This document shows, in pieces, positions 27,001 through 63,000 of a DNA stretch of 64,000 bases. The DNA is taken from NCBI RefSeq assembly GCF_006345805.1, contig NC_043023.1:9486001-9550000 (forward strand). Reading direction: 5' to 3'. Made by a program: the position numbers. The DNA comes from Octopus sinensis. Lineage: Eukaryota. Every line of letters begins with the position of its first letter. Position 1 is the stretch's first letter.

Positions 27001-30000
27001 ACACACCACACACACACACACACACACACACACACACACATATATATAAATATAATATATATATATATATATATGATGTATACATGAACTCTCACATACA
27101 GATGTGTAAACTAATCTCCCTTATCTCGTTCGTCTTCTTCATTTTCTATTTCTTACAATCAAGTTTTACTTGTCTTCACGTCTTTTTCTCTTTATTTTTT
27201 TCTCCTCTAATTTTGTATTTATTTCCTTATTTGTCGCCATAATCCTCATGTTTATAGTCATGGACAAACCACCACCATCATCGTCAACATCATCATCAAC
27301 TTCATCATATTATCTCACCATCATCATCAGCATCAATGCCACCGACGCTATAAACATCATCTACCTCATCATTATACCCATCTTCAACAATATCTATCTT
27401 CGTTATCAATCACCATCATCGTCGTTGTCATTCATCATTGTCATCATCTTCTTCATCAACTTTTTCCATTTCCATTTGTTTATTTTTCGTCTCTTCCTGC
27501 ATCGTATTGAAATATAATATTTAATATAGTATTTCTTAGCAATTACCGTTTATTTTACAGAGATCTATCCCACAATGCAATTTCAAGTTTGGAACAAAAT
27601 GCCTTCGAAACACTGACCGAAAAAAAGATTGTAAGTTGGATGTGTCTTGCTGATACTACTTTCTGTGCATTCCCCTCTTTATTTGACGTTTCTTGACACG
27701 TCTCTAGCTGATATTCACTCTAAATATATGCGAGACTCTGTGTGAATCTTAGTGCTTGTTGTGTATATGTGATGCACTTTGTGAAGAATAACAAAGATTA
27801 AAAATTGCTGCCAACAACTATCTCCAGAATGTAAGAATATCATCGCTACGAGTCAGAAACAGACTACTTAAAAATTTGTTCTTCACAAACTCCTGATCCG
27901 GTGCACCGTGCAAGATATCCCCTAGATCTTTAAGAAAAATGAACCAGCGAATCGAATAAAAAACGCAATGATCACCAGAAAGGAGTTGCAAGAAAATTTA
28001 TTAGCTTCAGGGACTAGTGTTACACTACGAACAATCAGCTATGAACTTCATAGGAATGAACTGAAGTCATGCTCACATAGAAAAACTCCGCTGTTGTCTA
28101 AAAGGCATAGAGATGCCCGTTTAAAATTTGTTTATGAACATAAAGAAAAATCTGATACATTCTGGGAAAATGTTCTATGGACAGACGAGTCGAAAATTGA
28201 ATTGTTTGGACGAAATTCGCGTAGCCATGTTTGAAGAAAAGATGGTACCGCCTATTCGCCGAAAAGGACCATCACGATCATCATCGCCAGCACCATCATC
28301 ATCAACGACATCATCATCATCATCATCATCATCATCATCATCATCATCATCATCATCATCATCATCATCATCATCATCATCATCATCATCATCATCATCA
28401 TCGCCATCATCATCATCATCCTCACTCATAATAATCTTCACTCATGATTTTCAGAATGTTCTTCGTTAAATTCTTTCACTACAGCTTATATTTCCTCTAT
28501 TTCTGCATGTAATTCATTAGCGATAATATTTGAAATTTTATGACTAATCTTTATATATAAAACTGAAGTTGTGTGAGAGTCTTTCTCAAACGATTTAGAT
28601 TCCTAACGACTCCCACATTTTGCGGTGCAGTTTAACCAAAAGCGGGTATCTTATAGTCGTGATTCATATCAAGCCCTTCTGGGTATTAGCGCGCGTCTAC
28701 GATGAGTCTACGATTTATAAATAAAATTACCATCATTTTTTCGTTTTTTTAATGCATTTTTGGCTCGGTTTATATCAGGGAAGTAACTCTCTAAAAATGC
28801 TTATATAGTTATTTCCCTTACAAACCCGAGCAACGCCGGGCGATACTGCTAGTTTCTTATATATTATTTCGTATCAATTATCTTTTATCTTTCAGATATC
28901 TATCCCATAATAAAATCACGAAAATTGAAAACGGACCACTTCGAAATCTTCAGAACTTAATGTATTTGTAAGTTGGATCAGTCTTGCTAAGACTACAAAC
29001 TTGACTTCCTTTCTTAAGCCTCTTTAGCCCTTCTCTAATTTTCTCGCATTTTCTCTATACATGTGTATGTCTAAGCGTGTGTGTGTCTGTTTCTGTGAAG
29101 GTTTGTGTGTGTATATATGTGTGTGTAAAGGTGTGTATGTGTGTGTGAAGGCGAGTGCATGTGAATAAGTTTGGATTCTATATCTTTGTGTAATATTATA
29201 TGTATAAGCGTATGCATGTGCATATATATTTGTGTCTGAAATGTGTGGATAACTATTTTCTTTTATTGTTTCCTTTTTCCGTCAGAGATATTGAGCGTAT
29301 CATAAATCTTTGCTCTGCTCTTCCAAAGAGGACTTTTTCGTCGCTTTGAGAACGCGATCTGTTCACTGACAACATTCTGTGCTGCATCTGAGAAAGTAAC
29401 AGTTAGTTCATGATATATACGTACGTATGTGTGTATGTATATATGTATGTATGTATGTATGTATTTATGTATGTATGTATGTATGTAAGTACATACGTAC
29501 ATACTTACATACATACATGCGTATAGGCATGCACACATGCATGCGCACATAGATGTACACATAATTTATTTTATTACCCTATTTACTATGTTTAAATATT
29601 GTTCGATAAATTTGCTCGTAGACTTTCTAACGGCAAGCTCTCTGTTCGCCGGATGTGATTTGCGTCTGCGAACTGGTCTGAAAAGTTAGGGTATACAGGT
29701 CATTAGATTTTCACGTGCTTCTAATGATATGTACTTCTCGGATTACAAAGGCTGCTTGCTGATGAGTCTAGCCATGGCAGATATTAATGACGACTATAAG
29801 AACCCGCTTTTGGTTAACTGCACCGCAAAATGCAGGAGTAGTTAGGAATCTAAATCGGAGGAGACAGACTCTCACACAACTTCAGTTTTATTATAAAGAT
29901 ATATCTGTAAATGTATGTGTGAAGTTCACTCACCAGATAATCGACAACACGTGCCAACCTGTGTGCACATTGGGCATAATTTGAAATCACCATCATACAA

Positions 30001-60000: not shown

Positions 60001-63000
60001 ATATATATATATATATATATATATAGGAACGCATATAAATATCACCGCACTGCCAGCGATATCATCTTCATCATCTACGTCATCATGATTATCATCTTCT
60101 TCATCTAATATTTTACTTCGTTATCTAATTGATTAGACATAATACTTTAAATTTTATGATTACTCTCCTCTATATTATAACTTACCAATTCTTTTATCTT
60201 ACAGACGATTATCCGATAATAAAATCTCGAAAATTGAAAAAGAATCATTTGTAAATCTTCCCAAGTTACATGAGATGTAAGTTGAATCAGTTTTGTAGAT
60301 ATTATTTCCTTGATTTCTAAGTATCTAATATCTTCCCATCTTTGTTTCTTATCCTTCTTTTTGCTCTTTTCTAATTCACATTCTCTCTGAATGTGTGTGC
60401 GATGATTTTATGTATATTTGTGTTTGAAATGTGCGGATAACAATGCATTCCGATAAATTTTCCTGTTTCATGAAGCATCTGTTTTACTGACGGTTGTGGA
60501 GATCTGTTCTCTGATGGTCTTAGGATCTGTTCGGTGACGGTCGTAGGATCTCTAATCTGGCGGTCGTAGTATCTGTTCGCTTACAGTCGTAAAATCTGTT
60601 CGCTGAAGGTCGTAGAATCAATTCGTTGACGGTCATGGAGATTCTTGTGCTTTATATGTACTCAACAAGCTGTGATTGGCTACAGATGACTTGGCACAAT
60701 TCATCCAATACGTGACCACCAAATACAGCTTCCTTGACTCACTTCATGTGGATTTGACGGCATAGAAGCAGCATCCCCTGTTCCAATATCTCACGTCTTC
60801 TGTGTTCCCCATCGACTACTTACAACTCATTTGATGAACATCATATTCGACTCTGCTTGATATAAACCTCTTTGTATATAGACAGTTATGCGATTTTGCA
60901 TTTGGACCCGTTTTATACGCAAAACTATGCCTCATTACACTACTGAATAAATTTAACGATCTTGCTTTATGAAATAGCATTGTGGATATTCTTTATCAAC
61001 GCCTTTATAATGAAACATTTTAAATGGATTCTCTCTAGAAACTCTCTTTGAAAATGCTAAATACATACATCTTACAACACTAACACATTTCATATCGGAG
61101 ACTTTCTTCACTATGGTCATTAGTAACTCTCCAAGTTACATTGGTAACCCGCTATATTAGTGACGACTATCATCGTTATCGTTACAGCTCTTCTCACTGC
61201 TGTTATCCCAGTGGATATTGACAATTGACCATGTCGGGGCGCTTTCACTAATTTTCTCATATGCTCTCTACAAATATGGCGTGCCGGGCAAAACCCATTT
61301 CGTTTCCACTAACAATATAAACCGTGTAGGATGATTATGTAACGCACAAATATCTGGTTTGTGTAGTCGACAACCTTGAATAATAACCGCTCAAGGTCAC
61401 CCACTATCTACTGGCTTACAGAATAATCTCTTTAGATATGATCTAATGACCCAACGCTGTTTGCCCAAGTCCATATTGGTGCATTCAAGGAATCCAGTTG
61501 GAAAAGAGTGGTGAGAATTGTGTCTTTAATATACACACCCGACTCTCTTAACACCTAGGCACACGCACACACATAACACGAGAAACAAAAGTGATGCAAT
61601 TAATACATTAGCTAAACCTGTTGTAGCCAAATAGATTTTAGCATCGTAAAATAGTTCACCAATGATGTTAGAAAAATTTATACGAAAATATACATTTTTC
61701 ACAATGGACCACATGCATCACCCAAGATAGATTATGCAGTTCTATATTTAAAAGATGAGGAATTATGTACATTATTTACATTATTTATATTTGATTATGC
61801 AACGAAAAGATAAGGGTTGTGGATTACTGCTACTTCAACTAGGAGCTTAGACACCTAATTAACAAAAACAAACGACTATCAGTATGAACGTTGTAAGGAA
61901 CTGTGCTATACATAAGAAAAAACTGAGACATATATGTGAAGGAGTTGCGGATCAACGAGACTGGGCTACAACGAGATGTATCTGAAGAACCAAGGATATG
62001 CGCGAGATCAGCTATCCGCTATTTCTATGTTTATATATTGTGAGCAGGGACGATTGATTACCTTATCTATTAGGCAGGTAAAGACCCAGAAAGCACGGCC
62101 TTGCCAAGCTGGAGGGGAGTGATTTGCCCCCTTTCTCAAAAAATATAGGACACAGATTGTATGCCATTAAGCAGCTGGAAAAGACATTTTCCTTGGGTTA
62201 AAATGTAATAACACAATTATTTATGCTGTTAGAAACATACAAACACATACACGCATAATATATATATGTATATATATAAATATATATATATATATATATA
62301 AAATGTGCTGTAATATTTACAGCTGTTAATAAAATGTTTTAGTTTGAAACAATTGTACTAAATTACCGGATTCATTCTTGTTGCTTATTTTTATATATAT
62401 GTAAATGGATGAATGAATTATCCTTTGTCTACTGCTAACATGGAATTCAATAAACATTTACCAGGGTAGCAAAATTCACGTGAGTAACATGGATGAAGCG
62501 ACCTATTCAAAGGTAGAAACTCCGGGTTAATGTGCAATAATTTGTATAGTATAAGTAAATAAATAGAGTTGAACGATGTTATTAAAATTCATTTAATAAC
62601 ATCTTCGTTCAACTCCATTTATTTACTTATATATATATATATATATATATATATATATATATACATATATACATACACACACACACACACATATATATAT
62701 ATATATATACATATATACATACACACACACACACATATATATGTGTGTCTGTGTGTGTGCATACACGCATATACTTACAAACAAACATTCATTCCATATA
62801 CAAGATTTCAATTTGAAAATAAGCATCGTTTAATTCAGTGCAATTTATTTATATGTAGTTATATATCAGTTCCTCGAATAAGTTCTGTCCGAATTTTGAA
62901 TAAAGAAAACAAGTGATCAAATGTTACATTTAGAGAGAAGAATCTTTTCCCCACGGAGTTCCCTTCTCGGTTGTGGTTGAGCTTTTTCCCTTTTACCAAG

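What the first reader, a model, noticed from the sequence alone, without database searches (positions are those of the whole stretch)
27561..60276. Hidden array of 20 interchangeable 72-nt LRR micro-exons
Seen: 20 exons on the + strand, each with a pyrimidine tract plus CAG acceptor and (19 of 20) a GTAAGT donor. Each encodes one typical 24-aa LRR (LxxLxLxxNxIxxIxxxxFxxLxx); 18 are exactly 72 nt. All start with A and end in TT or AT, so every possible junction rebuilds Leu (TTA) or Ile (ATA) at the same conserved core position. One unit splices to 168 aa (7 LRRs). Known: one LRR per 72-nt phase-2 exon occurs in LGR and glycoprotein-hormone receptors. Inference: this is a very long LRR ectodomain whose length and composition can change freely by exon skipping or unequal crossover. 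It is a candidate diversified recognition receptor (Dscam- or VLR-like in logic). The ORF track misses all of it.
Basis: partly seen in the sequence, partly recalled or inferred. Interest (0 to 1): 0.92.

Follow-up and report, generated by a model that had tools for sequence, protein, structure and literature searches.

The report
Recently triplicated octopus LRR exon array
The 20 small exons are real leucine-rich-repeat exons of an octopus receptor-type gene, but they are three almost identical copies of one seven-exon block, so this is an ordinary recent internal gene duplication and not a diversified immune-like repertoire.

Summary
There are exactly 20 LRR exon units on the + strand. All 20 have a CAG acceptor and all start with A. 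19 have a GTAAGT donor and 18 are 72 nt.

They are not 20 different modules. They are six peptide types in a 7-exon, ~12.7-kb unit repeated about 2.9 times in tandem to the window end. The units differ by 0.4-1.2% in exons and introns alike.

The window is Octopus vulgaris or a very close relative. The 3' exons of an LRR-GPS-7TM adhesion GPCR (P0001) lie 22-26 kb upstream.

The closest protein is an Octopus bimaculoides model, P0132. It carries single copies of exon types C, D and A' in the same order, with the Ile/Ile/Leu junction residues that the exon ends predict. That supports the splice model.

Best reading: the LRR ectodomain part of a gene of the octopus LRR adhesion-GPCR family, recently lengthened by unequal crossover.

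The Dscam/VLR-like reading is not supported. Three exons carry defects, no first exon is in the window, and an assembly artefact is not excluded.

The parts
26953..64000 (+). Tandem segmental array: about 2.9 copies of a ~12.7-kb unit, running off the window's 3' end
   Evidence: Self-megablast, for example 37475-44857 against 50190-57561 at 98.7% and 47515-51564 against 59953-64000 at 99.65%. MAFFT of the units.
26960..27085 (.). Compound (TA)n(CA)n(TA)n microsatellite at the left edge of the array. The same tract lies at both unit junctions (about 39.7 kb and 52.4 kb). Sequence upstream of it is unique.
   Evidence: Alignment.
27561..40340 (+). Unit 1 (exons A, B, C, D, A', D', E). It is the most diverged copy and holds the two exons of 70 and 71 nt.
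40341..53066 (+). Unit 2. All seven exons are 72 nt, but its E exon has an ATAAGT donor.
53067..64000 (+). Unit 3, cut by the window end. Six exons are seen; the E copy would fall beyond 64000.
27561..27630 (+). LRR exon type A, unit 1, 70 nt (frame-breaking length)
   Evidence: The next exon read from its first base has stops.
28896..28967 (+). LRR exon type B, unit 1, 72 nt
30829..30900 (+). LRR exon type C, unit 1, 72 nt
32354..32425 (+). LRR exon type D, unit 1, 72 nt
33022..33092 (+). LRR exon type A', unit 1, 71 nt (frame-breaking length)
35009..35080 (+). LRR exon type D' (identical to D), unit 1, 72 nt
39228..39299 (+). LRR exon type E, unit 1, 72 nt
40341..40412 (+). LRR exon type A, unit 2, 72 nt
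41716..41787 (+). LRR exon type B, unit 2, 72 nt
43569..43640 (+). LRR exon type C, unit 2, 72 nt
45103..45174 (+). LRR exon type D, unit 2, 72 nt. 22 of 23 residues match LRR5 of P0132.
45779..45850 (+). LRR exon type A', unit 2, 72 nt. 16 of 23 residues match LRR6 of P0132.
47767..47838 (+). LRR exon type D', unit 2, 72 nt
51950..52021 (+). LRR exon type E, unit 2, 72 nt, donor ATAAGT instead of GTAAGT
   Evidence: It is missing from the strict pattern list.
53067..53138 (+). LRR exon type A, unit 3, 72 nt
54427..54498 (+). LRR exon type B, unit 3, 72 nt. It has three amino-acid differences from the unit 2 copy.
56278..56349 (+). LRR exon type C, unit 3, 72 nt
57742..57813 (+). LRR exon type D, unit 3, 72 nt
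58417..58488 (+). LRR exon type A', unit 3, 72 nt
60205..60276 (+). LRR exon type D', unit 3, 72 nt
27926..28231 (+). Tc1/mariner transposase remnant (HTH part only) in the intron after the A exon. Six copies in all, one in every A or A' block, so the insertion is older than the A/A' duplication.
   Evidence: Pfam HTH_Tnp_Tc3_2, E 3.8e-14. Repeat family D17 with 6 copies.
1397..1783 (+). Context: the TM5-TM7 exon of the upstream neighbour, an LRR-GPS-7tm_2 adhesion GPCR (P0001-like)
5487..5513 (+). Context: small next exon of the P0001-like gene. It ends in phase 1, so it cannot feed the phase-2 LRR exons in frame.

Best explanation
This is the repeat-coding middle part of an octopus gene for an extracellular LRR domain. 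The gene belongs to, or is very close to, the octopus-specific family of adhesion GPCRs with LRR ectodomains.

Shown here:
- Each 72-nt exon encodes one 24-residue LRR.
- Every intron splits the same conserved Leu/Ile codon after its second base, so all exons are frame-symmetrical.
- The array consists of single-exon duplicates that are old (types A, B, C/D, E), then small block duplicates (A to A' about 1.7 kb, D to D' about 0.9 kb), and lastly a ~12.7-kb seven-exon unit present in at least 2.9 near-identical tandem copies.

Inferred:
- The last step arose by unequal crossover or slippage at the compound microsatellite that marks the array edge and every unit junction.
- Each added unit would lengthen the LRR solenoid by 7 repeats (168 aa) without breaking the frame.
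- The locus therefore behaves as a coding macrosatellite whose copy number may vary between individuals. It is not a store of diverse modules.
- The cap LRR, cysteine-rich region and probably GPS/7TM exons lie beyond the window's 3' end.
For: - Exons and splice signals.
- LRR identity of single exons.
- Unit structure and identity of about 99% in exons and introns alike.
- Nested older duplications.
- The microsatellite at the left edge and at both junctions.
- The upstream neighbour is an LRR-GPS-7tm_2 receptor, 96-99% identical to P0001 of Octopus vulgaris.
- The only database protein found with a single-exon stretch is P0132 of O. bimaculoides (E 9.7e-18). Its LRR4, 5 and 6 match types C, D and A' at 18, 22 and 16 of 23 residues, in the same order. 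Its junction residues are I, I and L, as the exon ends AT|A and TT|A predict.
- P0132 shares its signal peptide, cap LRR and invariant cysteines with full-length family receptors.
- P0132 folds as a capped LRR solenoid with a strand every 24 residues.
- Annotated family members also carry near-identical internal LRR blocks with a strict 24-residue period: P0001 (2-LRR block), P0006 (3-LRR block three times) and P0017 (8-LRR block).
Against: - No family-type first exon (signal peptide plus N-cap) is found anywhere in the window, nor a cap LRR or cysteine-rich exon. The link to a whole gene is therefore by homology and neighbourhood only.
- 3 of 20 exons are defective: lengths of 70 and 71 nt, and one ATAAGT donor. 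Reading through the 70-nt exon puts stops in the next exon.
- Exon and intron divergence between units is the same, so nothing shows selection on the new copies.
- The exon peptides are no closer to P0001 or P0006 than to insect chaoptin-like proteins, at 50-72%.
- No O. vulgaris protein model with the D peptide was found; there were 2 candidates and 1 hit.
- 'Same contig' for P0132 and the receptor models refers to a 12-Mb contig, which is weak evidence.
- There are no reads and no transcripts.
Confidence: 0.65

Rival explanations
1. The array is a pool of interchangeable LRR exons used combinatorially, by regulated exon skipping or somatic choice, to make a diversified recognition receptor in the manner of Dscam or VLR.
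For: - All exons are frame-symmetrical and any junction rebuilds Leu or Ile.
- The 30 nt of intron on each side are better conserved between exon types than the exon bodies. This could reflect shared splicing control.
- P0132 is called 'isoform X2', so the O. bimaculoides locus has more than one predicted isoform.
- Brown-alga ROCO genes with the same exon design are reported to splice their LRR exons alternatively (PMC11378527, passages read).
Against: - There are only six peptide types. The units are about 99% identical and introns are as similar as exons, so choice among units would change length, not specificity.
- P0132 uses C, D and A' together in series.
- Canonical splice sites argue against VLR-type cassettes.
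- Duplex energies between the intron-end flanks are ordinary in 6 of 7 junctions, with z from +1.0 to -1.5, and one at -2.6.
- There are no transcript data.
Confidence: 0.08
2. Assembly artefact. The true locus holds one seven-exon unit or fewer copies, and the tandem repetition comes from over-expansion or stacking of haplotypes or reads in a repeat-rich region.
For: - Long stretches are 100% identical between units, about 2.5 kb in all three.
- The differences between units are of the order expected between alleles.
- Two of the defects sit in short A runs.
- The upstream GPCR exon also shows one frame change against its protein model.
- The last ~100 residues of P0001 are absent from the window. 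This hints that the assembly is imperfect or differs from the annotated one.
Against: - The three units differ by real substitutions (43-106 intronic mismatches per pair) and by microsatellite lengths.
- Both unit junctions are the same and are crossed by continuous alignments.
- Unit 1 is clearly more diverged than units 2 and 3.
- Annotated relatives show the same kind of block duplication in their proteins.
Confidence: 0.15
3. Decaying exon array. It is a partial, non-functional duplicate of internal LRR exons, without a first exon, lying between two receptor genes, and is not expressed as protein.
For: - No first exon is found in the 21 kb between the neighbour's last seen exon and the array.
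- 3 of 20 exons are defective, and no complete unit in the window is free of defects.
- No O. vulgaris protein model was found with the D exon.
- There is no excess conservation of exons over introns between units.
Against: - The six old exon types, 28-51% diverged in DNA, all keep an open frame, the 72-nt length, the LRR scaffold residues and the splice signals. This means long-term constraint until recently.
- 17 of 20 copies are intact.
- The O. bimaculoides counterpart is an annotated gene.
- Defective symmetrical exons can be skipped without loss of frame.
Confidence: 0.2

Closest known systems
Octopus-specific expansion of adhesion GPCRs with LRR ectodomains ('group 3' of Ritschard et al. 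2019, PMC6408891; here P0001, P0006, P0009, P0017 and the ectodomain model P0132)
   Same: - 24-residue LRRs.
- The same exon order and junction residues as P0132.
- An LRR-GPS-7tm_2 member lies 22-26 kb upstream.
- Relatives also show internal LRR block duplications.
- The paper reports tandem clusters, LRRs in 5 of 22 members, and expression in axial nerve cord, suckers and skin (passages read).
   Different: - At least 20 LRR exons here against 8-14 LRRs in the annotated proteins.
- The copies are about 99% identical.
- GPS and 7TM parts are not seen in the window.
- No matching O. vulgaris protein model was found.
Gonadotropin-receptor / LGR gene structure (one LRR per small exon, all introns in phase 2)
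   Same: One LRR per exon of about 72 nt and uniform phase 2. This is stated for gonadotropin receptors in PMC11378527, citing Koo 1991 (passage read; Koo 1991 itself was not read). LGR4 is among the PDB hits of the exon profile and of the P0132 model.
   Different: The transmembrane family differs: 7tm_2 in the neighbours here, rhodopsin-type in LGRs (the latter recalled). LGR genes have no multi-kb tandem unit.
Brown-alga ROCO genes with shuffled 72-bp phase-2 LRR exons (Teng et al. 2024, PMC11378527; Zambounis et al. 2012 cited there)
   Same: The exon design is identical: 72 bp, phase 2, about 23 residues encoded inside each exon. There are tandem LRR exons, and the same Dscam-like idea has already been proposed in print (passages read).
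   Different: It is an unrelated lineage and protein (cytoplasmic LRR-ROC-COR). There the exons are diverse and reported to be under diversifying selection and alternatively spliced. Here the copies are near-identical and no splicing data exist.
Dscam alternative exon clusters
   Same: A tandem array of duplicated exons for one structural module.
   Different: Dscam exons are diverse and mutually exclusive (recalled). Here the exon types are used in series in P0132, the copies are about 99% identical, and no docking-type complementarity was seen.
Lamprey/hagfish VLR loci
   Same: Many LRR-coding modules lie near one another.
   Different: VLR cassettes lack splice sites and are copied into an incomplete gene somatically (recalled). 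Here every module has a branch-site-like motif, a pyrimidine tract, CAG and GTAAGT.
Coding macrosatellites such as the kringle IV-2 repeat of human LPA (recalled, not checked here)
   Same: A multi-kb unit holding in-frame exons is repeated in tandem, so protein length follows copy number.
   Different: The module is an LRR and not a kringle. Copy-number variation between individuals has not been shown here.

Membership tests
Typical extracellular LRR (Pfam LRR_8 type) | 24-residue repeat with the L..L.L..N.(I/L) core | tested here: met
   6 of 6 exon types hit LRR_8 at 13-21 bits as single repeats. L2, N5 and I7 are invariant in 8 peptides. The exon profile hits 7 PDB LRR proteins.
One-LRR-per-exon, phase-2 gene design (gonadotropin receptor/LGR; brown-alga ROCO) | Each repeat in its own ~72-nt exon, all introns in the same phase 2 | tested here: met
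   18 of 20 exons are 72 nt. 20 of 20 start with the third base of a codon and end with two bases. The junction residues are confirmed in P0132.
Octopus LRR adhesion GPCR family | GPS motif and 7tm_2 domain in the same gene | not testable with these tools
   Neither is found downstream of the array within the window. The only 7tm_2 piece belongs to the upstream neighbour. Sequence beyond 64000 is not available.
Octopus LRR adhesion GPCR family | Family-type signal peptide plus N-cap, cap LRR, and cysteine-rich region after the LRRs | tested here: not met
   None is found in the window by tblastn with 17 family N-termini and with P0132. They are present in the closest protein, P0132. They may lie outside the window, so this does not exclude membership.
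Octopus LRR adhesion GPCR family | Closest relatives and genomic neighbours are family members | tested here: met
   P0132 matches at 22 of 23, 18 of 23 and 16 of 23 residues for D, C and A', in the same order. P0132 aligns with full-length receptors over the invariant cysteines. A P0001-like gene lies directly upstream.
Dscam-like mutually exclusive exon cluster | Sequence-diverse alternatives, of which one is chosen per transcript | tested here: not met
   The units are about 99% identical. C, D and A' occur together in series in P0132. Actual splicing in this species was not tested.
Dscam-like mutually exclusive exon cluster | Docking/selector RNA pairing in the introns | tested here: inconclusive
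   Only the 45-nt intron ends were tested. 6 of 7 junctions were ordinary and one had z -2.6. The intron interiors were not scanned.
VLR-like cassette system | Cassettes without splice signals, assembled somatically into an incomplete gene | tested here: not met
   20 of 20 units have CAG acceptors and 19 of 20 have GTAAGT donors. Somatic rearrangement is not testable here.
Decorin / small leucine-rich proteoglycans (the automatic name of P0132) | SLRP-specific architecture beyond generic LRRs | tested here: inconclusive
   Decorin appears only as one of many generic LRR hits. P0132 carries the cysteine-rich region shared with the octopus receptors. I treat the name as automatic and not as membership.

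The most novel reading that the evidence does not exclude
The array is a working, copy-number-variable coding macrosatellite in an octopus adhesion-GPCR-type gene. Individuals, and through frame-neutral exon skipping perhaps tissues, would make ectodomains with different numbers of LRRs. That would tune ligand reach or avidity in suckers, skin or the axial nerve cord. The strongly conserved intron flanks would then be the splicing handles for this.
Probability: 0.12. Interest if true: 0.6.

Novelty: new member of a known kind. Interest (0 to 1): 0.3.

Why it matters
It shows how an LRR ectodomain in the octopus-specific adhesion-GPCR expansion grows. Frame-symmetrical one-repeat exons are multiplied in blocks, most recently as a 12.7-kb unit.

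It also flags a locus that protein annotation seems to miss in O. vulgaris. Repeat-rich 5' parts of these receptor genes look poorly modelled in general: many family models start inside the LRRs.

If the copy number proves variable or the exons are skipped in a regulated way, this would be a simple animal case of receptor length variation. As it stands it is an ordinary, recent internal duplication.

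Tried and rejected
- **First scans.** Scans that needed the LRR motif wholly inside one exon frame found nothing, because the motif spans the junction. I changed to the phase-aware scan.
- **Single-exon search.** The protein atlas, the representative search and structure prediction need at least 30 aa, so they could not be used exon by exon.
- Exons were never joined, so there was no Pfam scan, homology search or fold of the 168-aa or longer product. 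In their place I used single exons, a profile of single-exon peptides, one contiguous stop-free genomic stretch around exon D, and the annotated O. bimaculoides protein P0132 as a stand-in.
- **More exons upstream or on the minus strand.** None was found.
- **Family first exon, cap LRR or cysteine-rich exon in the window.** None was found.
- **Continuation of the upstream gene.** Rejected. Its last visible exon ends in phase 1 while the LRR exons need phase 2.
- **Exon peptides against 131 retrieved proteins.** No model contains them.
- **Selection.** NG86 counts on 23 codons are too noisy to claim selection.
- **Other scans.** Rfam and tRNA scans found nothing.

Full report
**1. Observation**

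The window has no N and 34% G+C. A phase-aware scan, a DNA profile and a protein profile searched over all six frames agree. Exactly 20 LRR exon units exist, all on the + strand, from 27561 to 60276. The 20 protein-profile hits score 43-55 bits and the next best hit scores 5.3 bits.

The tables give these counts:
- 20 of 20 have a pyrimidine tract and CAG.
- 20 of 20 start with A and end in TT or AT.
- 19 of 20 are followed by GTAAGT; 51950-52021 is followed by ATAAGT.
- 18 of 20 are 72 nt long; 27561-27630 is 70 nt and 33022-33092 is 71 nt.

The strict pattern occurs 17 times against 0.01 expected. ORF lists miss the exons because each lies in a stop-free stretch of only 42-61 aa.

**2. The 20 units are not independent**

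Self-comparison and alignment of the units show a ~12.7-kb unit holding seven exons in the order A, B, C, D, A', D', E. It is present about 2.9 times in tandem, from about 26953 to the end of the window.

| Unit pair | Exon mismatches | Intron mismatches |
|---|---|---|
| U1-U2 | 3 of 501 (0.6%) | 106 of 12082 (0.88%) |
| U2-U3 | 3 of 432 (0.69%) | 43 of 10494 (0.41%) |
| U1-U3 | 5 of 429 (1.17%) | 102 of 10411 (0.98%) |

Exons and introns are thus equally similar, and stretches of about 2.5 kb are identical in all three units. Only six peptide types (eight variants) exist, and type D occurs six times unchanged.

Inside the unit there are older block duplicates:
- A/A' blocks of about 1.7 kb are 3-5% diverged.
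- D/D' blocks of about 0.9 kb are 99-100% identical outside a microsatellite.

Between the old types, homology is limited to the exon plus about 30-40 nt of intron on each side. A Tc1/mariner remnant sits in all six A and A' blocks, so it predates that duplication. The array's left edge and both unit junctions lie at the same compound TA/CA microsatellite.

**3. What the exons encode**

Following the rule for this finding, I searched exon by exon and left the joined step out. No Pfam scan, homology search or fold was made of a spliced product.

- Each of the 6 types alone hits Pfam LRR_8 (13-21 bits, E 3e-4 to 0.07, cut-off 27).
- A profile of eight single-exon peptides hits 7 PDB sequences at E of 0.001 or less, all LRR proteins: two designed LRR proteins, LGR4 (two sequences), a protein deposited as 'Leucine rich repeat protein', and decorin (two sequences).
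- The split codon is the second Leu of the L..L.L..N core, read.

**4. Organism and neighbourhood**

An 87-aa piece at 1540-1800 is 99% identical to P0001, 'adhesion G-protein coupled receptor G6-like [Octopus vulgaris]'. All 14 hits are Octopus proteins.

P0001 has LRR_8 (10 stretches), a GPS motif and 7tm_2. Its TM5-TM7 exon lies at about 1397-1783, with one frame change against the protein model. A small next exon lies at 5487-5513. The last ~100 residues of P0001 are not in the window. That small exon ends in phase 1, so the phase-2 LRR exons cannot continue that gene in frame.

A search with P0001 returned 3365 proteins at E of 1e-10 or less among 8000 scored candidates. The best are about a dozen Octopus LRR-GPS-7tm_2 proteins, followed by insect chaoptin/artichoke-type LRR proteins.

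None of the 131 proteins then in hand contains the window's exon peptides. The best matches were 50-72% over 14-22 residues, and the octopus receptors were no closer than insect proteins.

**5. The closest protein**

A single exon is too short for the homology tool. I therefore sent one contiguous stop-free genomic stretch around exon D (45 aa). There were two candidates and one hit: P0132, 'decorin-like isoform X2 [Octopus bimaculoides]', 456 aa, E 9.7e-18.

P0132 has a signal peptide, an N-cap, eight LRRs and the cysteine-rich region shared with the full-length receptors. It ends before any GPS or 7TM part.

| P0132 repeat | Window exon type | Identical residues |
|---|---|---|
| LRR1 | B | 15 of 23 |
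| LRR4 | C | 18 of 23 |
| LRR5 | D | 22 of 23 |
| LRR6 | A' | 16 of 23 |

The order is the same as in the window. The residues at the repeat boundaries are Ile after the C-like and D-like repeats and Leu after the A'-like repeat. That is just what the exon ends AT|A and TT|A predict. This is independent support for the splice model. It also shows that these types are used in series.

E and the first A type have no clear counterpart. P0132 has no second D after A'.

A model of P0132 built with 15 family sequences has pLDDT above 90 over most of the LRR part and a strand every 24 residues from 61 to 255. Its nearest solved folds are capped neuronal and extracellular LRR domains: LRRTM2, Nogo receptor (TM-score up to 0.86 on the target), netrin-G ligands, LGR4, decorin and FLRT2.

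**6. Mechanism**

Shown: the exons are frame-symmetrical, the duplications are nested, the units are near-identical, and the junctions lie at a microsatellite.

Inferred: the array grew by unequal crossover or slippage, each unit adding seven repeats in frame.

Annotated relatives show the same habit. All six family proteins examined have LRRs at a strict 24-residue spacing. P0001 has a 2-LRR block duplicated with one unit 24 of 24 identical. P0006 has a 3-LRR block three times. P0017 has an 8-LRR block twice.

**7. Tests of the Dscam/VLR idea**

- Diversity among the copies is almost nil.
- The exon types are serial in P0132.
- Splice signals are canonical.
- The conserved intron ends do not pair more than shuffles do in 6 of 7 junctions; one junction has z -2.6.

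One thing is odd. Between old exon types the exon bodies are 28-51% diverged, but the adjoining 30 nt of intron are less so (17-33% downstream). I read this as constraint on the branch site, the pyrimidine tract and the donor region, together with free change at the variable LRR positions. It was not tested further.

**8. Working gene or not**

Evidence for long-term constraint: all six old types keep frame, length, scaffold residues and splice sites.

Evidence against a fully working array:
- 3 of 20 exons are defective.
- The 70-nt exon would put stops into the next exon.
- No complete unit in the window is free of defects.
- No first exon is present in the window.
- No O. vulgaris protein model with the D peptide was found. 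The tool itself calls such a blank weak evidence.

An assembly artefact cannot be excluded without reads.

**9. Literature**

- PMC6408891 (passages read) describes the octopus-specific adhesion-GPCR expansion. It reports LRRs in 5 of 22 members, tandem clusters, and expression in axial nerve cord, suckers and skin.
- PMC11378527 (passages read) describes brown-alga ROCO genes with 72-bp phase-2 LRR exons, exon shuffling and alternative splicing. It makes the Dscam comparison and notes phase 2 in gonadotropin receptors.
- PMC4536197 (passages read) added nothing for this point.
- Searches for this octopus array itself and for the design in general found no description of it in the held library.
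- The LPA kringle repeat, Slit exon structure, and Dscam and VLR details are recalled, not checked.

**10. Left unchecked**

- The joined product.
- Sequence outside the window.
- Reads and transcripts.
- The supplements of PMC6408891.
- Animal genome collections, of which none was on hand.
- The closed metagenome and viral collections.

Nothing in the window looked human.

Noticed in passing
window 1397-1783 and 5487-5513 (+): These are 3' exons of an LRR-GPS-7tm_2 adhesion GPCR, 96-99% identical to P0001 of Octopus vulgaris. There is one frame change against the protein model. The last ~100 residues of P0001 are found nowhere in the window. Either the model's final exons lie beyond the LRR array, or this assembly differs from the annotated one.
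   Followed up: partly
window 6126-6812 (+), about 19300-21310 (+), about 25000-26200 (+): Remnants of non-LTR retrotransposons (Pfam RVT_1 at E 2e-17, and zf-RVT). The reverse-transcriptase region is split over several short ORFs, so these copies are broken.
   Followed up: partly
window 27926-28231 and five further copies (repeat family D17): A Tc1/mariner transposase remnant, HTH part only, lies in the intron after every A and A' exon. It is useful as a relative date mark, being older than the A/A' duplication.
   Followed up: partly
window about 12140-13080 and about 21620-22390: Long satellites with periods of 8-12 nt. The first gives a GC skew of -0.5 over 12-14 kb. They produce long spurious ORFs rich in C, M, Y, V or H, T, Y, I.
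   Followed up: no
window 4736-5148 and 9093-9501: A dispersed repeat of about 410 nt, with 95% identity between the two copies. It is probably a short interspersed element. No tRNA-like part was found by ARAGORN.
   Followed up: no
30 nt on each side of every LRR exon, for example 45073-45102 and 45175-45204: The intron flanks are better conserved between old exon types than the exon bodies are. A branch-site-like motif sits about 20-25 nt before each acceptor.
   Followed up: partly
window 52022-52066 with 53021-53066: The E-to-A intron ends are the only pair of 7 whose predicted duplex is stronger than shuffles (dG -14.4, z -2.6).
   Followed up: no
proteins P0001, P0004, P0006, P0013, P0018, P0022, P0023: Many annotated octopus family models begin inside or just before the LRRs, without a signal peptide. 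This suggests that the repeat-rich 5' parts of these genes are often mis-modelled.
   Followed up: no
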